Source of the DNA: an uncultured delta proteobacterium
GTDB lineage: Bacteria; Desulfobacterota; RBG-13-43-22
Assembly (NCBI GenBank): GCA_963743305.1
Contig: CAVUPH010000014.1
Span: 384,001-448,000 of the forward strand
Direction: 5' to 3'
DNA length: 64,000 nucleotides
Positions 14,615 through 64,000 of this stretch are shown in pieces. A program made the translations under genes and the position numbers. The notes under the pieces were generated by a model. The model did no database searches, was not told the origin of the DNA, and saw only the letters and a list, made by a program, of their open reading frames with translations. How positions within the stretch are numbered: the first letter of the stretch is position 1; every line of letters begins with the position of its first letter.

Positions 14615-17242
14615 TTGAAGGACCATATCCCCTTGGGCGTCGGGTTTTACCCGGACTGGTGGAACAAGCATTACGGCATCTCGTACGACCGGAATTATTA
14701 TTTCGACCCGGAAACCCGGATCGCGGCCCGTTTGGAAATGGACCAAAGACTGCACGAACGTTTTGGGGACGTCGGCCTGGGAGACCCGGACCCGAAGCCC
14801 AAACCCTTCATCACCTTCGGCATGGTCATGCTGCCGGCCATTTTCGGCTGCGAGATCGTCTTCAAGAAGGACGCCCTGCCCTGGGCCCTGCCGCTAAACC
14901 TATCCGAAGACCGGATCATGAAACTGGAGGTCCCGGACATTAGTAAGGGCTATCCCCTGACCGAGATAATTAAGCAGATTGATTATCTCCAGGGTAAATA
15001 CGGGCGGGTCGTGGGGGATATCAACACGACCGGGGTGCAGAATCTGGCCCTGAAGCTGCGCGGCGAACAGCTTTATTTTGATTATTTTGAAAACCCGGAC
15101 CTCTGCCATCACCTGCTGAGGGTCTGCACCCGGGCCATCATCCAATTATTCCAATGGGTCTATAAAATTACCGGGACCGGGGCGCTGGACGTGACCCCCA
15201 TGTGCGACCCCCGGTTGTTTGTCCTGCCCAACTGCACGGTGGAGCAGGTTTCCCTGGCCACTTACGAAAAATTTAATCTACCCTATGACAATCAGGTGGC
15301 CAAGGCCTGTCATCCCCTGGGTATTCACCATTGCGGATCGGTGAACCAGGTACTGGAGGGTTATGCCCGGGTCCGCCATCTGAAATTCTTAGAGATCGGT
15401 TTCGGATCGGACGTCCGGCGGACCCGCGAGGTCCTGGGGCCCAAGGTGGCGGTCAACGCCCGCATCAACCCCGTCCTGATGAAGAACGGGACCCCGGAAG
15501 AGGTCTCCCAAGAAGTGCGCCGGTTGATCGACCAGGGCGATCCTCTGAAAAATTTTTCCATCGATACGGTCGGGCTGACCTTTGGTACCCCCGATGAAAA
15601 TGTGAAGGCGGCCCGGCAGGCGGCGGCCGACTATGGAAAAATTATGAAAAAGATGACTTCCATAAATAAAAAAGTCTTGGTTTCAGGCTTAGCAAAAAAA
15701 AGGAAGCTCCTGGAAACAGCCGTTCAGAGCCCCACCCGGACGGTATGGATCGGGTCTCACCATCCTCTGGTGATCATCGGTGAACGGATCAATCCGACCG
15801 GACGGAAAAAACTGGCCCGGGCCCTGGAGGAAGGGGACCTGAAAATGGTGCAGGAAGAGGCTCTGGCCCAGGTTCGGGAAGGGGCGCATATTCTGGACGT
15901 CAATGTCGGGGTTTCCGGGATTGATGAACCGCAGGTCCTTGCGGAGGCCGTCCGGGCCATTCAGGAAGTGACCGATATTCCGCTCTGCCTCGACTCGGCC
16001 CTGCCCCGGGCACTGGAAGCCGGCCTGGAAGTCTATCGGGGCAAGGCTCTGGTGAATTCCGTGAACGGCGAGCAGGAAAAGCTGGAGCGGATTCTGCCCC
16101 TGGTCAAGGCCAACGGAGCGGCGGTGATAGGTCTGACCATGGACGAGCGGGGGATCCCCTCGAAGGCCGAGGACCGACTGGAGATCGCCCGAACCATTGT
16201 GAAGCGTGCTGAAAAAATGGGAATATCCCGGGAAGACGTGATCATCGATCCCCTGGCCATGGCCCTGAGCGCCGACCACCTTACCGCCCTGGAAACCCTG
16301 AAGGCCCTGTGGATGATCCGCGAAGAACTGGGCGTCAACCTGACCCTCGGCCTATCCAATATTTCCTTCGGTCTGCCGGACCGCACGGCGATCAACGCGG
16401 CCTTTTTAAATATGGCGGTTTGGAGCGGGCTCACTTGCGCCATCATGGATCCCACGGTTCGGGAGATGCGTGGAGCCGCCCTGCTGGGGGATCTGCTGCT
16501 GGGCAAAGATGAAAACTGCCTGAGATACATCGCGGTAAGGGGCCGAATGGGTGGAGGTGAGGATGCGGCGCCGTCGCGACCGGCTGCGGCCGAGGCCCCC
16601 TCCGGCGACCTGGAAAAGCTGAAGGCGGCGGTGATCGACGGGAAACGCAGGGAGGCGGAAGACCTCACCCGCCAGGTCCTGGAAGAAGGGACCGACCCGC
16701 AGGAGATCATCCAGGGGACGCTGATCCCGGCCCTGAACGTGGTGGGGGAGCGTTTCGAAAACCGGAAGATCTTCGTACCGGAAATGATGGTCTCGGCCAA
16801 GGCCATGCAGGCCTGCGTGGATCTGGTCAAGCCTCATTTACGGCAGGGGGCCGCGCAAGTGCCGCTGGCGACCATCGTGTTGGGCACGGTATTCGGTGAT
16901 CTCCACGACATCGGAAAAAACCTGGTGAAGCTGCTCCTGGAATCGGCCGGCTTCCGGGTGGTCGATCTGGGGGAAAACGTCCCGGCCGAGCGGTTCGTGG
17001 CGGCGGCCCGGGAACATCAGGCCCGGGTGGTCGGACTGTCATCGCTCCTGACCACCGGCGATCCTTTTGTGGAGCAGACTATCAAGGCGATTAAGGCCAG
17101 CGACATCGCCGGAACGGTCAAGGTGGTCTGCGGCGGCGCGGCCCTCACCCCGAAATTCGTCCTGGAAACATGCGGCGCCGACGCCCACGCCAAAGACGCC
17201 GCCGACGGGTTGAAGAAGATCAAGGAGATGGTGAGAATATAA
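14615..17242 (+). CDS. Corrinoid methyltransferase: URO-D/MtaA-like domain, pterin-binding domain, B12 cap and B12-binding domains (single ORF as assembled)
   Basis: IHHCG in the URO-D-like part; IIGERINPTGRK, LDVNVG, GLSNISFGLP (pterin-binding); FVPEMM and GDLHDIGKNLV (DxHxxG). Confidence 0.82.
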   Translation: MKDHIPLGVGFYPDWWNKHYGISYDRNYYFDPETRIAARLEMDQRLHERFGDVGLGDPDPKPKPFITFGMVMLPAIFGCEIVFKKDALPWALPLNLSEDRIMKLEVPDISKGYPLTEIIKQIDYLQGKYGRVVGDINTTGVQNLALKLRGEQLYFDYFENPDLCHHLLRVCTRAIIQLFQWVYKITGTGALDVTPMCDPRLFVLPNCTVEQVSLATYEKFNLPYDNQVAKACHPLGIHHCGSVNQVLEGYARVRHLKFLEIGFGSDVRRTREVLGPKVAVNARINPVLMKNGTPEEVSQEVRRLIDQGDPLKNFSIDTVGLTFGTPDENVKAARQAAADYGKIMKKMTSINKKVLVSGLAKKRKLLETAVQSPTRTVWIGSHHPLVIIGERINPTGRKKLARALEEGDLKMVQEEALAQVREGAHILDVNVGVSGIDEPQVLAEAVRAIQEVTDIPLCLDSALPRALEAGLEVYRGKALVNSVNGEQEKLERILPLVKANGAAVIGLTMDERGIPSKAEDRLEIARTIVKRAEKMGISREDVIIDPLAMALSADHLTALETLKALWMIREELGVNLTLGLSNISFGLPDRTAINAAFLNMAVWSGLTCAIMDPTVREMRGAALLGDLLLGKDENCLRYIAVRGRMGGGEDAAPSRPAAAEAPSGDLEKLKAAVIDGKRREAEDLTRQVLEEGTDPQEIIQGTLIPALNVVGERFENRKIFVPEMMVSAKAMQACVDLVKPHLRQGAAQVPLATIVLGTVFGDLHDIGKNLVKLLLESAGFRVVDLGENVPAERFVAAAREHQARVVGLSSLLTTGDPFVEQTIKAIKASDIAGTVKVVCGGAALTPKFVLETCGADAHAKDAADGLKKIKEMVRI

Positions 17243-57992: not shown

Positions 57993-59621
57993 TTATCCCA
58001 ATATCGCCTTGAGATCCTCGTCCGGGGTGGTGATGGGCATGACGTTGAACGTCTTTACCAACACATCCAGGACGTTGGGGGTGATGAAGGCCGGCAGGGA
58101 GGGCCCCAGCCGAATGTTCTTGATCCCCAGGTAAAACAAGGTCAACAAAATGGCTACGGCCTTCTGCTCATACCAGGAAAGGATCATGGACAAGGGCAGG
58201 TCATTGACCCCCACATTAAAGGCCTTGGACAAGGCCACAGCGATCTGGATGGCCGAATAGGCATCGTTGCACTGCCCCACGTCCAGGAGGCGCGGGATCC
58301 CGCCGATGTCGCCCAGGTCTTTGTCGAAGAATCGGAACTTGCCGCAGGCCAGGGTCAGGACCACCGTATCTTTCGGTGCTTTTTCAACGAATTCGGTATA
58401 GTAATTACGTCCGGGTTTGGCCCCGTCGCAGCCGGCCACCAGAAAGAAGTGGCGGATGGCCTTGTTTTTTACGGCCTCGATGACCGCTCCGGCCACACCC
58501 ATGACGGTGTTGCGGCCGAACCCGACCGTGACCGTTTTCCCGTTGCTGTCTTCCGCAAAACCGGGTAAGGCCAACGCCTTTTCAATCACCGGAGCGAAGT
58601 TTTTATCGGCGATATGAGTGACCCCCGGGAAGCCCACCAAGCCGGTGGTGAAAATATTTCCCTGGTAGGATTCCTTGGGCTTCTGGATACAGTTGGTGGT
58701 CATCAGGATGGCCCCGGGAAATTCGCCGAACTCCTTGTGCTGATTCTGCCAGGCCGTGCCGTAATGGCCGTAGAAATGGGCATATTTTTTCAATGCGGGA
58801 TAGCCGTGGGTGGGCAGCATCTCGCCGTGGGTATAAACGTTGATCCCTTTGCCTTCGGTCTGTTTCAGGATCAGTTCCAGGTCTTTCAGGTCATGGCCGG
58901 AAACCAGGATGGCCTTGCCCTTTTTATGCCCTAGGGGAACCTTGGTCGGTACGGGATGTCCGTAGGTTTCCGTATTGGCGGCATCCAGGATTTCCATGGC
59001 TTTTAAATTGGCCTCCCCGCATTTCAAGGTCAGGCCCACCCAGTCGTTCAGGGTCAGGTCTTTGTTCAGGGCGGCGGCCAATCCTTCATGGATAAAGGCA
59101 TAGACGGACTCGTCTTCCTTGCCCAAGATCTGGGCATGGTCAGCGTAAGCGGCGACCCCCTTAATCCCGAAAGTGACGGTCCAAATCAGCGCATGAATGT
59201 CTCTATCCGTAGTGGTGTCTGATTGAATTCCAACCTTCTCTCCTTGGGCGATCATTCCCTCCAGGGTATCGGCCAGGATTAAATTCGCCGGTCCCTTCGG
59301 GAAATCCACTTTTCCGCCGGCCGCTTTTACCTTGGCTTTCAATTTTTCCCGCAGGGCCACGGTCTCTTTCAGTAGAGGAGCGAACCGATCGGCGTCAAAA
59401 TCCACATTGGTCAAGGTCGAAAACAAGGCCTTGACGGTAAAAATATTGGCCTCCGGGTCGCTGATGCCCACCTTGCGGCCTTCCACGGCCACCTGGGACA
59501 ATCCCCGCATGGCATACACCACCAGATCCTGCAGAGCGGCTACTTCGGGTTGCTTCCCGCAGACCCCGACTTTGGTACAGCCTTCCCCTTTGGCGGTTTG
59601 TTCACATTGATAACAAAACAT
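57993..59621 (-). CDS. hcp: Hybrid cluster protein (hydroxylamine/NO reductase)
   Basis: MFCYQCEQT...C...CGK, SGHD, YTHGEMLP, TTNC, GCDG, LACG, GQCND, WYEQKA. Confidence 0.97.
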   Translation of the reverse strand: MFCYQCEQTAKGEGCTKVGVCGKQPEVAALQDLVVYAMRGLSQVAVEGRKVGISDPEANIFTVKALFSTLTNVDFDADRFAPLLKETVALREKLKAKVKAAGGKVDFPKGPANLILADTLEGMIAQGEKVGIQSDTTTDRDIHALIWTVTFGIKGVAAYADHAQILGKEDESVYAFIHEGLAAALNKDLTLNDWVGLTLKCGEANLKAMEILDAANTETYGHPVPTKVPLGHKKGKAILVSGHDLKDLELILKQTEGKGINVYTHGEMLPTHGYPALKKYAHFYGHYGTAWQNQHKEFGEFPGAILMTTNCIQKPKESYQGNIFTTGLVGFPGVTHIADKNFAPVIEKALALPGFAEDSNGKTVTVGFGRNTVMGVAGAVIEAVKNKAIRHFFLVAGCDGAKPGRNYYTEFVEKAPKDTVVLTLACGKFRFFDKDLGDIGGIPRLLDVGQCNDAYSAIQIAVALSKAFNVGVNDLPLSMILSWYEQKAVAILLTLFYLGIKNIRLGPSLPAFITPNVLDVLVKTFNVMPITTPDEDLKAILG

Positions 59622-59740: not shown

Positions 59741-59962
59741 CAATCGACTTTTATTAGACAAGAAAGAATGGAAACGATATCGATGGTTAATAATTATTAT
59801 TATTTGAAATAAATTAATACATTTGCCAGTGGGCGCAAGTAAGGCCGGAAAATTTTTTTTATTATCCTAATTTTTTTCTTGATTTCTCTTGAAATAAACA
59901 TATAAATGATTATTTATATACTTGTTGCTTCAATGGCTGATTTCAAGAATCAGGAATTTATA

Positions 59963-60343
59963 ATGATCAAAAAGAGCAGAAACAAGATGAAGGGAATAGC
60001 GTCTGAGGCTTTTCCGGAGGAGATGGGAAACCAGACGGAATGGGAACAGTCCCTATCCACGGTGGCTTTCTTAGCCAAAAGTTTGTCGGATGAAAACCGT
60101 TTGCGGGTGCTCATCAGTCTTCGCGAGGGCCGGCTTTCGGTATCCAGCCTGGTAGAGGCTTTACAATTGTCCCAGCCGCTGATTTCCCATCATTTAAAGG
60201 AATTAAAAAGGTCGCTGTTAGTCAAGGTCGAGCGCAATGGGCCTTTTATCTATTACGAACTGGCCGACAAAAGAATCCTTCAGATCATGAAAGACCTGGA
60301 GACCGTGGCCGGGGAATTACTGGCCAACCGTCGAACTTTTTAG
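59963..60343 (+). CDS. ArsR/SmtB-family regulator with no Cys (start uncertain)
   Basis: KSLSDENRLRVL, LSQPLISHHLKEL, R.GPFIYY. Confidence 0.88.
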   Translation: MIKKSRNKMKGIASEAFPEEMGNQTEWEQSLSTVAFLAKSLSDENRLRVLISLREGRLSVSSLVEALQLSQPLISHHLKELKRSLLVKVERNGPFIYYELADKRILQIMKDLETVAGELLANRRTF

Positions 60344-60358
60344 TCAGGAGAACACCCG

Positions 60359-60814
60359 ATGCCTGGAAAAACGATACTGGAATTTATCGAGAAACTCGAG
60401 CCGGAAAAAGCCTTAAAAGAAATTTCTCTGGCGGTCAAAACCCTTTTCCCCATGCTGGACCAGGAATCCCGTCTGAATTTTGTGGTCAGCCTGATCGGGG
60501 ATGCCGGGGCGGACAAGGTGGCCAGCCTGGTGAACCTCTGACTGGCGGAATGCATGGACGAAGGTGTCGATCCAACCAAGATGTGCCAGAGTTTAGTGGA
60601 TAAGGTCTTTCAATCCAAACAGTTAAGAACCGTGGCCGAACCGGATATTTTAGCGCTTTTTGAAGACTGGCTGGAGGAATTGGAAGAGGAAATCATAAAT
60701 ATGGTAAAAAAGACCGGTTCCGATGATCTGGGGAAGTTGGCCCGAGGATTGGGGTTGTCCCGGGCCGGCGTAAATTTCCTGATCACCAAATTAAAGAGGG
60801 AAGAAAGGATTTAA
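60359..60814 (+). CDS. tsoA: Predicted selenoprotein with LULAEC motif and C-terminal HTH-like segment (TsoA-like)
   Basis: In-frame TGA at 60539-60541 joins ORFs 60359..60541 and 60554..60814 (VNL-U-LAECMDEG); hairpin at 60555-60574. Family name recalled, not searched. Confidence 0.8.
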
Positions 60815-60848
60815 AAAAGCCCTGACTTTTTCAGTGGAGGTGTTCGTT

Positions 60849-62583
60849 ATGAAGTAGAAAACCATTTTATTGCCGCATTCTCGGTGGCTCTGGTAATCGG
60901 GGCTCTCTGGTTTACCAACCGGGCCGTAACTCCAACGGCGGCTACCTGGGAAGATGTTCTCCAGGAAGCCCAGCGCGGCGGCTATCGGATCATCAAGACG
61001 GATGAGATCTGGGAACGGTATCAAAGAAATCCGCAGGACCTGATGCTGGTGGATACCCGTCAGGAATGGGAATATCGAACCGGACACCTCAAAGGAGCGG
61101 TTAATTTTCCCATGGAACCCACGGCCTGGTCCCGCTGGCGGAAACAGAAGGAGATGGCGACCTTTTTGGGACCCGATAAAAACCGCTTCCTCGTCTTTTA
61201 CTGAGCGGGCTTGACCTGAGTCCGCAGCGACTCCGCAGCCCGGGTGGCTGTCAAACTTGGCTACAAAAATGTATATCGCGATCCCTACGGATTTCCGGAA
61301 TGGCAGGCCAAAGGTTATCCCATCAGCAGCGCTCCGGCCGGCCTGTCCGGGGAAGCGGCCCCTCCCCAGACCCCCGGCCCCTTGTACGGCTGGGCCATGG
61401 TCTGGACCCTGCTGGGCATTTTTGCCGGAGGGATTGCCTTGAACCTGACACCATGTGTCTATCCCATGATCCCTATTACCGTTTCCTATTTTGGAGGGCG
61501 GAGCGGAGAGGGAAAGGGAAAACTATTGACCCATGGCCTGTTATACCTGGGGGGCCTATCGGCCACCAACTCCATTTTGGGGGTTGTCGCGGCCTTGACC
61601 GGTGGTCTTATGGGGGCCATGCTTCAAAACCCGATGGTCCTACTGGTCGTGGCCGCTATTCTGGTTTTTTTCGCCTCCAGCCTCTTCGGGTTTTGGGAAC
61701 TTCGTCTTCCCGGCGGCCTGACCCAGCATGGCTTCCAAATCTTATGCCGGATATTTCGGTTCCCTGTTTATGGGCTTGACGCTGGGCGTGGTGGCCGCAC
61801 CCTGCATCGGTCCTTTCGTTCTCGGACTCTTAACCTGGGTGGCCAGTATGGGGTCCCCATGGCTGGGGTTTATTGTCTTTTTTACCTTGAGCCTGGGCCT
61901 GGGGCTGCCTTTATTTTTTCTGGCCATGTTTTCCGGCAAGATCGAAAAACTACCCCGATCCGGAGAGTGGATGATCTGGGTTCGAAAACTGATGGGCTGG
62001 ATCCTGGTGGGCATGGCAGCCTATTTCATTCGGCCCCTCCTACCTGAAACCGTAGCGGTATTCCTTTTCGTTCTGGTAGCCTTGGGCGCCGGACTGCACC
62101 TCGGCTGGCTGGACAAGTCCCAGGCCGGCTTTCGGGCCTTCGCCTGGATGAAGGGTGGGGCCGGGATCGCCGGTCTGGTGATAGCCACTTTTATCCTGGG
62201 TTCCTGGATGATCCGCGGGCCGGGGGTGGCCTGGAATGCTTATTCGGACAAGCTTCTGGCGGAAGCGGCCCAAAACCGGAAACCGGTCATCATCGATTTC
62301 TATGCCACTTGGTGTACCCCCTGCCGGGAACTGGAGGAAATCACCTTTCACCAGCCTGAGGTGGTCACAAAGGGGAACCGGGATTATATTATGATAAAAG
62401 TGGACGTGACCCAAGCCGGGAACCCACTGAATGAACGGCTTCTCAGTCAGTATGGAATTAAAGGGGTCCCGACTGTGGTTTTTATAGATTCGAGCGGGAA
62501 AGAGCATCTGGAACTTAAGGCTGGTCGATTATCTTCCGCCGGACCAGTTCCTGAAGAAAATGGAAACAATAAATCAAAAATAA
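60849..62583 (+). CDS. tsoB: Predicted double-Sec rhodanese / DsbD-TM / thioredoxin fusion (TsoB-like); apparent indels at ~60853, ~61722, ~62518
   Basis: VDTR..WEY..GHLKGAVNFP; FY-U-AGLT-U-VRS (TGA 61202 and 61217, in frame with 61244); LTPCVYP, APCIGP; DFYATWCTPC, GVPT. Confidence 0.8.
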
Positions 62584-62596
62584 GAACACGGGAGGT

Positions 62597-63109
62597 TTGA
62601 TGGCGTATATAGAAAAATTTTTGGGAAGACGGGTCGAGGTCCCGGAGGATCGACGTTATGTCGTCAAACCGGGACTTTGGGCCAAGGCCGAAGGGGCGGA
62701 GGTGCGATTTGGGTTAACCGAACCGGAGTTGGTATTAGCCGGCGGTGTCAATGACCTGGAATGGCTGGTCTGGGATGGAGAAGAGGTGGAACAGGGACAA
62801 TCCATTGCCATCGCCATCACCGGAAAAATTAAATATATTGACGCTCCCGTAGCCGGGGTCCTGCGGCTGAATCCCGGGATAAAGGAAGCCACGGCCCTCA
62901 TTGCCCGGGACTCCTATGGAGAGGGATGGTTGTTTCAAATCAAAACCAGGTCCGAAGCGAATTTCGCCCTGGAGGAACTGTCTTCGGCTGAAGCCTATGT
63001 AGAGAGCCTCCAAAATTCAGAAGGATGCAAGAATCCGGAAGGACTAAAGGGCGGGGTTTCCGGGATCTGCAAGGCGGTTTATACCGGGATCAAAGAACAA
63101 AAATTTTAG
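62597..63109 (+). CDS. GcvH-like (lipoyl-carrier fold) protein with Cys-containing C-terminal extension
   Basis: RRY...LW, VRFGLT, APVAG...NP, DSYGEGWLF; canonical ESxK replaced by AITGK. Confidence 0.75.
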   Translation: MMAYIEKFLGRRVEVPEDRRYVVKPGLWAKAEGAEVRFGLTEPELVLAGGVNDLEWLVWDGEEVEQGQSIAIAITGKIKYIDAPVAGVLRLNPGIKEATALIARDSYGEGWLFQIKTRSEANFALEELSSAEAYVESLQNSEGCKNPEGLKGGVSGICKAVYTGIKEQKF

Positions 63110-63130
63110 AAAAAAGAAAGGAGAACCCCA

Positions 63131-63448
63131 ATGGTCAAAGTTCGCTGTTTTTATAATGAACCCAATGGAAAGCCTTGAAAGCATTTTCAGGAAATGATGC
63201 CCAGGTTGGGCCAAAAGTACGAAATTGAGGTTGAAATACTATCCAAACCTATAGCTGAATACAATACGGATGAATATTTTGAGTTGGAATTGCCGGTGGC
63301 TCCAGCCATCATGGTGGATGACCAGATCCTGGTGGAAGGCTCCGATGTTTCTGAAGAAAAATTGGAGAACGCCATCCGCGCCAAACTGGGCCTGGAGGCT
63401 ATAGTGATAGAAAAAAAAGGGGTTCTGGGGCGGCTTTTCGGTCGGTAA
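63131..63448 (+). CDS. tsoC: Predicted thioredoxin-fold selenoprotein with NEPNGKPU motif (TsoC-like)
   Basis: RBS AAGGAG, ATG 63131, MVKVRCFYNEPNGKP-U(63176)-KHFQEMMPR in frame with ORF 63194; APAIMVD; hairpin at 63199-63211. Confidence 0.82.
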
Positions 63449-63472
63449 AGGCCGTCCGACGGGTAGATCTTC

Positions 63473-63589
63473 ATGCCTGGAGCAGAGGTTTTCGACCGGC
63501 AGGCGGAACGGTACGACGCCTGGTTTGAACGGCATCCGCCAGACAATCTTTCATCCGACAAAAGGAACGGAACAGGCGATACCGGTTGA
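63473..63589 (+). pseudogene. N-terminal remnant of a class I SAM-dependent methyltransferase
   Basis: MPGAEVFDRQAERYDAWFERHP, then unrelated sequence and a stop. Confidence 0.55.
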
Positions 63590-63653
63590 AGAGGGATATG
63601 GCGGGGGGCTCTTTATAGTAATTAAAGCGAATAAATAATAGGGGACAAAATAA

Positions 63654-64000
63654 GTGAAAGGGAAAACCGGTCCAGGAAAAGGGGCTATGGTAAAAGCCTT
63701 GGTATTGGTTGCATTTATTGCCGCTGCGGTATATGTTATTCGCTTTAGCCCGGTTAAAGATTTTTTGACTGTCGAGGCGATGAGACGATTCCTGGACATC
63801 TCCGGGTTTTGGGCGCCGGTGATCTTTATATTGATTTATACGGCTGGGATCTGTCTGTTGGTGCCCGGTTCGCTCCTGACCACCCTCGGGGCGGCGATCT
63901 TCGGGGCCTATTGGGGATTTCTCTACGTCCTGATCGGGGCTGTGCTGGGGGCCACCGCCGCCTTTTTTATCGGCCGGTATCTGGGCCGGGACTTTGCCGC
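63654..64000 (+). CDS. TVP38/TMEM64 (VTT/DedA superfamily) membrane protein, partial
   Basis: Manual translation: ...GFWAPVIFILIY...LLVPGSLLTTLGAAIFGAYWG...GAVLGATAAFFIGRYLGRDF; runs off the window end. Confidence 0.85.
   Translation, partial: MKGKTGPGKGAMVKALVLVAFIAAAVYVIRFSPVKDFLTVEAMRRFLDISGFWAPVIFILIYTAGICLLVPGSLLTTLGAAIFGAYWGFLYVLIGAVLGATAAFFIGRYLGRDFA

What the first reader, a model, noticed from the sequence alone, without database searches (positions are those of the whole stretch)
59963..64000. Hidden ArsR-led operon with three selenoprotein genes and four in-frame UGA codons: candidate transmembrane Se/S redox system
Seen: the ORF track breaks this region into fragments, but four TGAs (60539, 61202, 61217, 63176) are followed by in-frame coding sequence, and each of the three genes has a downstream hairpin with a GGT-containing loop. 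Gene order is arsR, LULAEC protein, rhodanese/DsbD/Trx fusion, GcvH-like, NEPNGKPU thioredoxin-fold protein, methyltransferase remnant, TVP38. Known: DsbD TM domains move electrons from cytoplasmic thioredoxins to extracytoplasmic partners, and rhodaneses carry sulfane S or Se. From memory the motifs match the TsoA/B/C models, and I know of no established function for them. Inference: electrons pass from TsoC through the DsbD cysteines to the Trx domain and an exported selenyl rhodanese, for handling polysulfide, selenium or a metalloid.
Basis: partly seen in the sequence, partly recalled or inferred. Interest (0 to 1): 0.93.

Follow-up and report, generated by a model that had tools for sequence, protein, structure and literature searches.

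The report
Known Tso three-selenoprotein operon
This stretch holds a real operon of three selenium-containing proteins with four recoded UGA codons, but it belongs to the already described Tso operon, whose function is still unknown, and one of its genes is broken in this assembly.

Summary
The four TGAs sit at 60539, 61202, 61217 and 63176 and are followed by conserved in-frame coding sequence. NCBIfam names the genes TsoR, TsoA, TsoB, GcvH-related protein and TsoC. The system is in print as the Tso "three selenoprotein operon" (Haft & Tolstoy 2025, seen only through review PMC13188914), so it is not new.

Sec is used in every relative examined:
- TsoA: 80 of 80
- TsoB: 46 of 46, both sites
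- TsoC: 72 of 72
- 41 of 41 full-length TsoA matches in a sample of 401 genomes of the phylum

The hairpins after the UGAs of tsoA and tsoB keep their pairs through compensatory changes. The genome holds selB, selD and tRNA-Sec. selA was not found.

They are probably assembly indels.

My additions:
- TsoB has DsbD's three redox pairs, with a U-x4-U rhodanese in place of DsbD-alpha.
- TsoA ends in an Lrp/AsnC-like HTH.
- tsoR and tsoA are adjacent in 79 of 79 loci.
- A conserved palindrome, a candidate operator, lies at 59900-59919.

The substrate remains unknown.

The parts
59900..59919 (.). Palindrome ATATAAA-N6-TTTATAT, a candidate TsoR operator, lying between a promoter-like -35 (59895-59900) and -10 (59917-59922)
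   Evidence: It is the only match in the 64-kb window and is exact. With up to 2 mismatches it occurs within 300 nt upstream of the TsoR core in 52 of 78 loci and within 600 nt in 66 of 79. Of the 22 hits outside the 300-nt zone in 863 kb of loci, 18 lie further upstream of tsoR and 4 lie elsewhere. Promoter-like site. Binding by TsoR is inferred.
59963..60343 (+). tsoR, ArsR/SmtB-type regulator (start at ATG 59963 assumed; the ATG at 59906 lies inside the palindrome)
   Evidence: NF045707 155.2 bits, cut-off 115. PF01022 HTH_5. The window's protein has no cysteine. 25 of 79 orthologous segments have none, and no Cys column is conserved.
60359..60814 (+). tsoA, LULAxC-motif selenoprotein; UGA at 60539-60541 (U61); C-terminal HTH-like part about 60668-60811
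   Evidence: NF045695 227.4 bits, cut-off 170. U in 80 of 80 orthologs. 41 of 41 full-length matches in the phylum sample have 1 TGA. HTH_24 matched by 51 of 75 members at E<=1, best 1.7e-6; the window's own protein gives E 0.031. Residues 104-151 of the model resemble Lrp/AsnC HTH domains, Z 8.1 to 7.5.
60556..60573 (+). SECIS-like hairpin of tsoA, loop AGGUG
   Evidence: 99.8% of cells paired. Pair 20-33 is AU 43, GC 28, GU 1 of 72. 0 of 500 shuffles reach the covariation score.
60849..62583 (+). tsoB, rhodanese/DsbD-TM/thioredoxin selenoprotein; UGAs at 61202-61204 and 61217-61219. Broken in this assembly: TAG at 60855-60857, frame change near 60866-60871, extra base at 61722, extra base at 62512
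   Evidence: NF045694 490.5 bits (model 4-290) plus 480.6 bits (model 291-554); cut-off 805 for one protein. PF00581, PF02683, PF13899 and PF00085. The lesions are absent from 4 same-genus copies. U....U in 46 of 46 orthologs. The first U aligns with the catalytic Cys of solved rhodaneses.
61235..61251 (+). SECIS-like hairpin of tsoB, loop CGGGU. Its loop starts 25 nt from UGA2 and 40 nt from UGA1
   Evidence: 98.6% paired. Pair 37-49 is GC 32, AU 12, CG 1; pair 40-46 is CG 43, UA 3; pair 35-51 is GU 44, CG 1, GC 1. RNAalifold predicts the same hairpin.
61218..61233 (+). Small near-invariant hairpin GAGUC-CGCAGC-GACUC that includes UGA2; a candidate second element for UGA1 (weak)
   Evidence: 97.4% paired with no covariation. 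The third-codon positions inside the stem are C in 45 of 46 and 46 of 46 sequences, while neighbouring third positions vary. The loop has no GGU.
62600..63109 (+). GcvH-related protein, an accessory gene
   Evidence: NF045810 252.4 bits, cut-off 150. K76 aligns with the lipoyl-lysine of GcvH 1onl and 3a8i. K is kept in 9 of 9 sequences. Present in 5 of 59 loci.
63131..63448 (+). tsoC, NEPxGxxU selenoprotein with a thioredoxin fold; UGA at 63176-63178 (U16)
   Evidence: NF045708 144.8 bits, cut-off 45. Model pLDDT 92.3, pTM 0.81. Foldseek matches thioredoxins at E 2.5e-4 and weaker, TM about 0.5. U in 72 of 72 family members.
63199..63211 (+). SECIS-like hairpin of tsoC, GCCCA-GGU-UGGGC
   Evidence: 98.6% paired. 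Pair 24-36 is GC 60, GU 4, UA 2, other 4 of 70. This is weak covariation and is confounded with the conserved MPRLG peptide.
63473..63638 (+). Methyltransferase remnant: the N-terminal and C-terminal ends of a gene that has lost its middle
   Evidence: Related locus L041 has an intact 210-aa gene at the same place. The related copy carries about 460 nt more between the matching ends.
63654..64000 (+). TVP38/VTT (DedA-like) membrane protein gene, which runs off the window
   Evidence: PF09335 E 1e-8. Downstream of the tso genes in 22 of 59 loci.

Best explanation
This is a Tso (three selenoprotein operon) locus of a Thermodesulfobacteriota genome: tsoR-tsoA-tsoB-(gcvH-related)-tsoC, followed by a TVP38-type membrane protein gene. 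All four in-frame UGAs encode selenocysteine.

Shown:
- Family membership.
- Sec at every aligned site in relatives.
- Covarying SECIS hairpins for tsoA and tsoB.

Inferred mechanism:
1. TsoR represses the operon at the palindrome at 59900-59919.
2. TsoB works like DsbD. Reducing equivalents enter from the cytoplasm through the two membrane cysteines (TM1 and TM4), pass to the periplasmic WCTPC thioredoxin domain, and then reach a periplasmic, membrane-tethered rhodanese domain. The catalytic loop of that domain holds two selenocysteines (U-x4-U) in place of the cysteine pair of DsbD-alpha. The selenol pair then reduces or carries an extracytoplasmic sulfur, selenium or metalloid species that is still unknown.
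3. TsoC (thioredoxin fold, single Sec) and TsoA (Sec plus two invariant Cys, C-terminal HTH-like domain) are the cytoplasmic partners. Because tsoR-tsoA is the invariant core and tsoB is optional, I think TsoA and TsoC form a Sec-based sensing or relay pair, and are not only the electron donor for TsoB.

The frame breaks in tsoB are most likely assembly indels (about 70%) and less likely real decay.
For: Identity: NCBIfam hits above cut-off for TsoR, TsoA, TsoC and the GcvH-related protein. TsoB matches in two contiguous halves. The operon is named in review PMC13188914 (passages read).

Sec:
- U at all sites in 80 of 80 TsoA, 46 of 46 TsoB and 72 of 72 TsoC.
- 41 of 41 full-length TsoA matches in 401 sampled genomes of the phylum have 1 TGA.
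- All 10 TsoB matches over cut-off in relatives have 2 TGA.
- Compensatory pairs in the hairpins.
- selB 363.5 bits, Sec-type selD, and tRNA-Sec.

DsbD-like logic:
- 8 TM helices plus an N-terminal anchor, and exactly three redox pairs.
- The DsbD model aligns over the TM and Trx parts.
- The first U sits at the rhodanese catalytic Cys position.

TsoC fold. TsoA HTH.

Core and operator:
- tsoR-tsoA adjacent in 79 of 79 loci.
- TsoB in 36 of 59 loci and TsoC in 51 of 59.
- Palindrome in 66 of 79 loci.

Assembly indels:
- 10 other window-private single extra bases shorten ORFs relative to G002 over about 59 kb.
- selD is also split.
- tsoB dN/dS is 0.08-0.11, the same as among relatives.
Against: No experiment or expression data bears on function. 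The primary paper was not readable.

Against the mechanism:
- TsoC lacks a CxxC, so it cannot by itself do thioredoxin's two-electron chemistry.
- The TsoA HTH evidence is modest. The window's own protein scores 14.3 bits against a cut-off of 21.9, and Z about 8 is common for small helical units by the tool's own note. The Sec region of the model has low confidence (pLDDT 50-57).
- UGA1 of tsoB lies 40 nt from the loop of the covarying hairpin, further than the other three UGAs (about 24-29 nt). How it is decoded is open.

Against a working Sec system in this genome:
- selA was not found with two models, and the assembly is 90% complete.

Against the assembly-error reading:
- tsoB carries 3 frame changes in 1.7 kb, against a background of about 1 per 6 kb.
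- rpoB, rpoC and dnaE (about 11 kb) are intact.
- Real decay is therefore not excluded.
Confidence: 0.75

Rival explanations
1. In this organism the locus is decaying. tsoB is a true pseudogene and the Sec trait is being lost, so the operon no longer works here, although the kind is real.
For: - tsoB has TAG at codon 3 and three frame changes, all private to this genome.
- Metagenome contigs of relatives also lack the extra bases at 61722 and around 62510-62518.
- selD is split.
- selA was not found.
- rpoB, rpoC and dnaE are intact, so indels are not everywhere.
Against: - About 8 genes in this window carry window-private single extra bases. That is too many for a free-living 4.9-Mb genome and is typical of consensus errors.
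- dN/dS of tsoB is not raised (0.08-0.11).
- tsoR, tsoA, tsoC, selB and tRNA-Sec are intact.
- The selA neighbourhood of relatives, not only selA itself, finds no match in the assembly. That points to an assembly gap.
- Related assemblies have their own private indels in tsoA, tsoB and tsoC.
Confidence: 0.28
2. The TGAs are ordinary stops, and the region is a set of short genes or gene fragments. There are no selenoproteins.
For: Under table 11 the region reads as fragments. The folding energies of the hairpins are not unusual.
Against: - Coding conservation runs through every TGA in all relatives examined.
- The curated family models span the TGAs.
- Compensatory changes keep the hairpins.
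- Sec machinery is present.
Confidence: 0.02
3. The system is mainly a cytoplasmic sensing and regulation module. TsoA is a Sec-dependent HTH sensor, reset by TsoC, that acts with or on TsoR. TsoB, TVP38 and the GcvH-related protein are variable effectors under its control.
For: - tsoR-tsoA adjacent in 79 of 79 loci.
- 7 of 59 loci have neither tsoB nor tsoC, and 16 of 59 have tsoC without tsoB.
- TsoR has no conserved Cys.
- TsoA has an HTH-like C-terminus.
- A conserved operator is present.
Against: - The HTH evidence is below family thresholds for the window's protein.
- The HTH has no wing and sits at the very end of the protein.
- A small HTH can also serve protein contacts.
Confidence: 0.2
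4. The system acquires or traffics selenium (or detoxifies a soft metal or metalloid) and is not a general periplasmic reductase. The periplasmic diselenol rhodanese captures Se, S or a metal. TVP38 helps passage across the membrane. TsoC and TsoA carry it in the cytoplasm.
For: - A rhodanese fold with Sec at the catalytic site.
- An ArsR/SmtB-type regulator.
- TsoC's only other NCBIfam hit is the MTH895/ArsE thioredoxin-like family, and it is weak (E 0.004).
- TVP38 is linked in 22 of 59 loci.
- From memory, not from a call: rhodaneses can carry selenium, and DedA-type proteins have been tied to selenite uptake.
Against: No conserved transporter, selD or metal-resistance gene is linked. No other neighbour family occurs in more than 13 of 79 loci. 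There are no data on inducers.
Confidence: 0.25

Closest known systems
Tso, the three selenoprotein operon (NCBIfam NF045707 TsoR, NF045695 TsoA, NF045694 TsoB, NF045708 TsoC; Haft & Tolstoy 2025, mSystems 10:e0141724, known to me only through review PMC13188914)
   Same: Same families, same motifs (LULAxC, UxxxxU, NEPxGxxU) and same gene order, in the same bacterial group.
   Different: Here tsoB is frame-broken. A GcvH-related gene sits between tsoB and tsoC (5 of 59 loci). A methyltransferase remnant separates tsoC from the TVP38 gene.
DsbD of E. coli (NF001419; alpha, beta and gamma domains)
   Same: A transmembrane domain with one cysteine in TM1 and one in TM4, a C-terminal periplasmic thioredoxin domain with CxxC, and three redox pairs in all.
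   Different: The N-terminal alpha domain is replaced by a rhodanese whose pair is two selenocysteines. The scores (83.7 and 143.2 bits) are below DsbD's cut-off of 330. The cytoplasmic donor is unknown.
Single-domain rhodaneses and rhodanese-related selenoproteins (PF00581; NF041203 rhodanese_LYCAU)
   Same: The rhodanese fold, with Sec at the position of the catalytic Cys.
   Different: The catalytic loop is two residues longer and holds a second Sec. The domain is tethered to the membrane and fused to a DsbD core.
ArsR/SmtB metalloregulators
   Same: A winged-helix repressor with an AT-rich palindromic site at its own promoter.
   Different: No conserved cysteine (25 of 79 have none). The inducer is unknown. 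It is always paired with the selenoprotein TsoA.
Thioredoxin-fold proteins (thioredoxin; MTH895/ArsE family TIGR00412)
   Same: TsoC has the fold, with its Sec at the start of helix 1, where the CxxC motif sits, and an invariant proline loop.
   Different: It has GKPU in place of CxxC, so a single redox residue. The TIGR00412 score is 17.5 bits against a cut-off of 62.
Lrp/AsnC-type helix-turn-helix (PF13412 HTH_24)
   Same: The last 48 residues of TsoA superpose on the N-terminal HTH of Lrp/AsnC regulators (Z 8.1 to 7.5, rmsd 1.4-3.5). 51 of 75 members hit HTH_24 at E<=1.
   Different: There is no wing and no effector domain. The HTH lies at the C-terminus, after a Sec/Cys motif. The window's own score is below the cut-off.

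Membership tests
Tso operon | TsoR equivalog model over cut-off | tested here: met
   NF045707 155.2 bits against 115.
Tso operon | TsoA model over cut-off, with Sec in the LULAxC motif | tested here: met
   NF045695 227.4 bits against 170. LULAEC with U61 at 60539.
Tso operon | TsoB model over cut-off as one protein, with UxxxxU | tested here: inconclusive
   Two halves in different frames score 490.5 bits (model 4-290) and 480.6 bits (291-554). Each is below the cut-off of 805, and together they cover the model. The UAGLTU motif is present. Intact single-frame orthologs in 9 of 41 related genomes score 977-1012 bits.
Tso operon | TsoC model over cut-off, with the NEPxGxxU motif | tested here: met
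   NF045708 144.8 bits against 45. NEPNGKPU with U16.
Tso operon | The genes lie together, on one strand, in the usual order | tested here: met
   R-A-B-(GcvH-related)-C on the + strand. The same order is seen in related loci.
Bacterial selenoprotein genes | A SECIS-like hairpin downstream of each UGA, kept across relatives | tested here: met
   tsoA and tsoB (UGA2) show compensatory changes. The tsoC hairpin is conserved with weak covariation. UGA1 of tsoB has no covarying hairpin of its own.
Bacterial selenoprotein genes | Sec machinery in the genome (selA, selB, selC, selD) | tested here: inconclusive
   - selB: 363.5 bits.
- selD: present with its own TGA, but split by a frame change.
- tRNA-Sec: C6:26761-26857.
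- selA: not found with TIGR00474 or PF03841.

The assembly is 90% complete. The selA neighbourhood of relatives has no match in it.
DsbD | Transmembrane domain with two conserved cysteines | tested here: met
   PF02683 matches in both halves. C203 in TM1 and C319 in TM4 of the intact ortholog.
DsbD | C-terminal thioredoxin-like domain with CxxC | tested here: met
   PF13899 and PF00085. WCTPC.
DsbD | N-terminal alpha domain with its cysteine pair, and the DsbD model over cut-off | tested here: not met
   The DsbD model aligns only from position 168 onward. Scores of 83.7 and 143.2 bits against 330. The N-terminal domain is a rhodanese.
Rhodanese | Pfam domain over cut-off, with Cys or Sec at the catalytic position | tested here: met
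   PF00581 54.2 bits against 22.2. The first U aligns with the catalytic Cys of 6mxv, 3d1p and 6k6r.
Rhodanese | Catalytic loop of canonical length | tested here: not met
   All three printed alignments open a two-residue gap in the solved rhodanese opposite the LT of UAGLTUVRS.
Thioredoxin fold (TsoC) | The fold | tested here: met
   Model pLDDT 92.3. 10 Foldseek matches at E<=0.001; 9 are thioredoxins and one carries a different entry title.
Thioredoxin fold (TsoC) | CxxC active site | tested here: not met
   GKPU in the window. G13 and U16 are invariant in 65 sequences. A paralog has CGxTU.
ArsR/SmtB (TsoR) | HTH_5 domain | tested here: met
   PF01022 43.8 bits against 22. NF033788 77 bits against 55.
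ArsR/SmtB (TsoR) | Conserved cysteine-based sensing site | tested here: not met
   There is none in the window's protein. 25 of 79 orthologous segments have no Cys. Non-cysteine metal sites were not examined.
Lrp/AsnC-type HTH (TsoA C-terminus) | HTH_24 profile match and a structural match | tested here: inconclusive
   - Window's protein: 14.3 bits against 21.9.
- 51 of 75 members match at E<=1, best 1.7e-6.
- VIA Z 8.1 to 7.5 over 47-50 residues.
- Foldseek E 0.6-2.
- PDB profile search gives nothing below E 0.4.
GcvH | GCV_H domain with a lysine at the lipoylation position | tested here: met
   PF01597 41.6 bits against 22.2. K76 aligns with the K of ESVK in 1onl and 3a8i. Actual lipoylation cannot be tested here.

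The most novel reading that the evidence does not exclude
TsoA is a selenocysteine-dependent sensor with its own Lrp/AsnC-like HTH. Together with the cysteine-free repressor TsoR and the conserved palindrome, it forms a Sec-based transcriptional switch, with TsoC resetting its selenenylsulfide. This would be the first selenoprotein acting directly in gene regulation. In addition, the two UGAs of tsoB, 15 nt apart, may be decoded with one covarying SECIS plus a minimal invariant hairpin, an arrangement outside the usual spacing rule.
Probability: 0.15. Interest if true: 0.8.

Novelty: already known. Interest (0 to 1): 0.3.

Why it matters
The Tso system packs four selenocysteines into three proteins. 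No Cys form appeared in any relative examined here. Only Sec appears to serve for this chemistry, so the system is a good place to ask what selenium does that sulfur cannot.

It occurs in about a tenth of the sampled Thermodesulfobacteriota (40 of 401 genomes), which are common in sulfidic sediments, soils and wetlands. Its function is unknown.

This window adds no new kind. The analysis gives testable handles:
- a DsbD-like three-pair relay ending in a periplasmic diselenol rhodanese;
- an invariant tsoR-tsoA core;
- a candidate operator;
- an HTH-like end on TsoA;
- an open question about how two UGAs 15 nt apart are decoded.

It also warns that this assembly carries scattered single-base insertions that break genes.

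Tried and rejected
**Hairpin right after UGA1 of tsoB** (alignment columns 4-11 with 17-24): 83.7% paired, equal to the shuffles, with 0 compensatory changes. Rejected as a conserved element.

**Folding energy as evidence for the hairpins:** z-scores of -1.1, -1.2, -0.6 and +0.2. Not informative.

**Further conserved partner genes:**
- I clustered all ORFs of 79 loci. Reading TGA through fused neighbouring genes and made the clusters messy.
- Beyond the core, no family occurs in more than 13 of 79 loci. Those seen were a second ArsR-type gene on the opposite strand, an ABC ATPase, sensor kinases, sigma-54 regulators and TypA.

**Fold of the TsoA core:**
- Foldseek against PDB found nothing at E<=0.001.
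- The PDB profile search found nothing below E 0.4.
- Only the C-terminal HTH gave a consistent signal. The N-terminal and Sec-bearing parts remain unassigned. Their fold was not searched alone.

**Reads of the source assembly:**
- No run holds the stretch; the best share of words was 0.18. The lesions and the TGAs could not be checked in the organism's own reads.
- The contigs laid are from relatives, 85-99% alike. They leave out the extra base at 61722: X1 15.9 of 15.9 depth, X2 13.1 of 21.6, X5 6.26 of 9.16. In X1 they also leave one out within 62510-62518 (rows summing to 33.2 of 33.2).
- No shown row changes a TGA codon, but 862 rows were not shown, so this says nothing.
- RNA-run contigs (X19) overlap parts of the locus but do not show transcription.

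**selA:** not found in G000. It is present in 4 of 4 relatives searched. The G002 and G003 selA loci with 1.5-kb flanks have no blastn match in G000. An assembly gap and a real loss cannot be told apart.

**Papers:**
- Haft & Tolstoy 2025 is not held. I know it only from the reference list and passages of review PMC13188914 and from a search listing that names two citing papers. I cannot say whether the operator, the HTH of TsoA or the DsbD parallel are already described there or in its supplements.
- A search for TsoB, TsoC, TsoR and the motif names found only the review; the other listed papers use those letter strings for unrelated things.
- Searches for rhodanese + DsbD + selenocysteine (only the review) and for the locus tags Dbac_1935 to Dbac_1939 (0 papers) gave nothing more.

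Full report
**What is in the sequence**

Under table 11 the stretch 59963-64000 reads as fragments. With TGA read as selenocysteine three frames close up:
- 60359-60814: 151 aa, U61 at 60539
- 60851-61726: U118 at 61202 and U123 at 61217
- 63131-63448: 105 aa, U16 at 63176

**What the genes are**

NCBIfam gives:
- TsoR, NF045707: 155.2 bits, cut-off 115, for 59963-60340.
- TsoA, NF045695: 227.4 bits, cut-off 170.
- TsoB, NF045694: two halves of 490.5 bits (model 4-290) and 480.6 bits (model 291-554), against a cut-off of 805 for the whole protein.
- GcvH-related protein, NF045810: 252.4 bits, cut-off 150.
- TsoC, NF045708: 144.8 bits, cut-off 45.

Pfam finds Rhodanese, DsbD_TM and thioredoxin domains in TsoB, GCV_H in the GcvH-related protein, HTH_5 in TsoR and a VTT domain in the last, cut-off gene. 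It finds nothing for TsoA and TsoC.

The methyltransferase "remnant" is real. A related locus has an intact 210-aa gene there, and the window lacks about 460 nt of its middle.

**Is it known**

Yes. Review PMC13188914 (passages read) lists TsoA (LULAxC), TsoB (UxxxxU, "rhodanese/DsbD fusion-like") and TsoC (GxxU) with these NCBIfam accessions. [quoted passage not shown] That paper is not held, so I could not read what it says about function. A search for rhodanese, DsbD and selenocysteine together returned only the review. Locus tags around Dbac_1936, taken from the name of the TsoR model, returned nothing.

**Are the UGAs selenocysteine codons**

In 11 loci from related genomes, TsoA has U in 10 of 10 sequences and TsoC in 12 of 12, counting the window.

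A scan of one genome per species found 310 stretches that encode a TsoA relative. The best 80 were kept as 79 loci, nearly all from Thermodesulfobacteriota. In those loci:
- TsoA has U in 80 of 80.
- TsoB has U at both sites in 46 of 46.
- The TsoC family has U in 72 of 72: 61 with NEPxGxxU, 10 paralogs with NDPCGxTU or NDPKGKTU, and one whose start the pattern missed.

In an even sample of 401 genomes of the phylum, 40 have TsoA at E<=1e-10. All 41 full-length matches hold exactly one TGA. The four matches without a stop cover only the C-terminal part.

All 10 TsoB matches over cut-off in 41 related genomes hold two TGAs. I saw no Cys form.

**The hairpins**

- tsoA (60556-60573, loop AGGUG): 99.8% of cells pair. 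Pair 20-33 is A-U in 43, G-C in 28 and G-U in 1 of 72 sequences. The A-to-G change also turns Asp into Gly, so the RNA pair is kept at the cost of an amino-acid change.
- tsoB (61235-61251, loop CGGGU): three pairs show compensatory changes, namely 37-49 (GC 32, AU 12, CG 1), 40-46 (CG 43, UA 3) and 35-51 (GU 44, CG 1, GC 1). RNAalifold finds the same hairpin on its own.
- tsoC (63199-63211, GCCCA-GGU-UGGGC): 98.6% paired with only two compensatory cells. It overlaps the conserved MPRLG peptide.

The loops start about 24 to 29 nt after the U of the tsoA UGA, of tsoB UGA2 and of the tsoC UGA. UGA1 of tsoB lies 40 nt from the loop of the covarying hairpin.

The hairpin drawn right after UGA1 has no support. 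A small near-invariant hairpin at 61218-61233, which contains UGA2, starts 13 nt after UGA1. Its stem holds third-codon positions that are C in 45 of 46 and 46 of 46 sequences, while neighbouring third positions vary. Its loop lacks GGU. How UGA1 is decoded is open.

**Sec machinery**

- selB is present (363.5 bits).
- selD is present with its own in-frame TGA but split by one frame change.
- tRNA-Sec lies at C6:26761-26857.
- selA was not found with TIGR00474 or PF03841.

All four relatives searched have selA. The G002 and G003 selA loci with 1.5-kb flanks have no match at all in G000. The assembly is 90% complete, so an assembly gap is the simplest reading.

**tsoB is broken here**

Against four same-genus copies (87-92% identical) the window alone has four lesions:
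- TAG at codon 3 (60855)
- a frame change near 60866-60871
- an extra C at 61722
- an extra A at 62512

An equally short reading of the 5' end is two extra bases in place of a stop plus a deletion.

Evidence that the lesions are real:
- Three indels in 1.7 kb is about ten times the local background.
- rpoB, rpoC and dnaE are intact.

Evidence that they are assembly errors:
- The window is collinear with G002 over about 59 kb. It carries 10 more private single extra bases at places where its ORF is shorter than G002's (8728, 8964, 17742, 23115, 24130, 25961, 26584, 38869, 51129, 55505). They are often in pairs and hit about seven other genes.
- G002 and the other relatives have private indels of their own.
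- dN/dS of tsoB in pairs with the window is 0.08-0.11, against 0.08-0.14 among relatives.

I put assembly error at about 70%. No public run holds the stretch itself. Contigs of relatives also lack the two extra bases.

**Anatomy and likely mechanism**

*TsoB.* An intact ortholog (577 aa) has a hydrophobic N-terminal segment, a rhodanese domain, eight membrane helices and a C-terminal thioredoxin domain. It has only six redox residues: U119 and U124, C203 (TM1) and C319 (TM4), and C489 and C492 (WCTPC).
- The E. coli DsbD model aligns over the membrane and thioredoxin parts.
- With an N-terminal anchor and eight helices, both soluble domains fall on the outer side, as DsbD-alpha and DsbD-gamma do. 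This topology is inferred from hydropathy and from what is known of DsbD.
- The first Sec aligns with the catalytic cysteine of solved rhodaneses. The loop is two residues longer and carries the second Sec.
- The best-supported picture is a DsbD-type relay whose last station is a periplasmic diselenol rhodanese. What it acts on is unknown.

*TsoC.* The model is confident (pLDDT 92.3) and matches thioredoxins (E 2.5e-4 and weaker, TM about 0.5). Its Sec sits at the start of helix 1. The motif is GKPU, so there is one redox residue.

*TsoA.* The model is all-helical, with pLDDT 74.5 overall and 50-57 around the Sec motif.
- Its last 48 residues superpose on the HTH of Lrp/AsnC regulators (Z 8.1 to 7.5). 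Foldseek gives only weak rows.
- 51 of 75 members hit Pfam HTH_24 at E<=1, best 1.7e-6. The window's own protein gives E 0.031, below the cut-off.

*TsoR.* No cysteine is conserved, and 25 of 79 orthologs have none.

*Operator.* A palindrome, ATATAAA-N6-TTTATAT, occurs once in the window, at 59900-59919, between a -35-like and a -10-like hexamer. With up to two mismatches it lies within 600 nt upstream of the TsoR core in 66 of 79 loci. Only 4 of the 22 hits outside the 300-nt zone lie anywhere other than upstream of tsoR. It is a strong candidate operator.

**Modularity**

tsoR and tsoA are adjacent in 79 of 79 loci. Of the 59 loci with at least 4 kb downstream of tsoA:

| Gene | Loci |
|---|---|
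| tsoB | 36 |
| tsoC | 51 |
| TVP38 | 22 |
| GcvH-related | 5 |
| tsoC without tsoB | 16 |
| neither tsoB nor tsoC | 7 |

So tsoR-tsoA is the core and tsoB is an optional arm. It raises the possibility that TsoA, with TsoC, is a Sec-based sensor or relay tied to TsoR.

The lysine of the GcvH-related protein aligns with the lipoyl-lysine of GcvH and is kept in 9 of 9 sequences.

**Verdict**

The interest of this window as a discovery is therefore low. The function of the system remains open, and the points above are leads, not findings.

**Limits**
- The primary paper and all supplements were out of reach.
- There are no reads from the source organism.

Noticed in passing
window 8728, 8964, 17742, 23115, 24130, 25961, 26584, 38869, 51129, 55505: The window has single extra bases relative to the collinear G002 contig at places where its ORF is shorter than G002's. 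About seven other genes of this window are therefore frame-broken. G002 has breaks of its own, for example near 15667 and 57690.
   Followed up: partly
G000:C26:75850-76774 (L009, L010): selD is of the Sec-containing type (AAGUASK) and is split into two frames by one frame change.
   Followed up: partly
G000:C14:98758-100652 (L002): A second selB-like gene matches the selB model in two pieces (1-342 and 524-580). It may be another broken gene or a paralog.
   Followed up: no
window 57993-59621 (- strand): An intact hybrid-cluster-protein-like gene (542 aa, N-terminal CxxCxxxxxxxC) is transcribed away from tsoR. This neighbour is kept in the same-genus loci, and an hcp-like match lies upstream of tsoR in 6 of the 79 loci (L041, L042, L043, L045, L046, L106); two more loci have one downstream.
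   Followed up: partly
L036 and L028 (both from G003): One related genome holds two copies of hcp plus the tso locus on two contigs, about 87% alike. Each copy has private single-base indels (tsoA and tsoB in one, tsoC in the other). This could be a duplication or a mix of strains.
   Followed up: no
L058:2225-5186 and L058:6663-9569: Two complete tsoR-A-B-C sets lie in tandem on one contig. One sampled genome (G070) has four TsoA matches.
   Followed up: no
L096:7834-7923: One TsoB ortholog of 46 lacks the stretch that holds the SECIS hairpin. The sequence jumps to the later GFPEWQ region. This may be a deletion or an assembly fault.
   Followed up: no
L092:9781-10188 (- strand), and 11 further loci: A second ArsR-type regulator with a CTCGC motif lies on the opposite strand, between a TsoC paralog (NDPCGxTU) and tsoC, in about 12 of 79 loci.
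   Followed up: no
window 62600-63109: The GcvH-related protein has a C-terminal extension after the GcvH fold. It holds an invariant GICKAVY(T/S)GI(K/R)EQ motif, 9 of 9, and a second Cys that is not always kept.
   Followed up: partly
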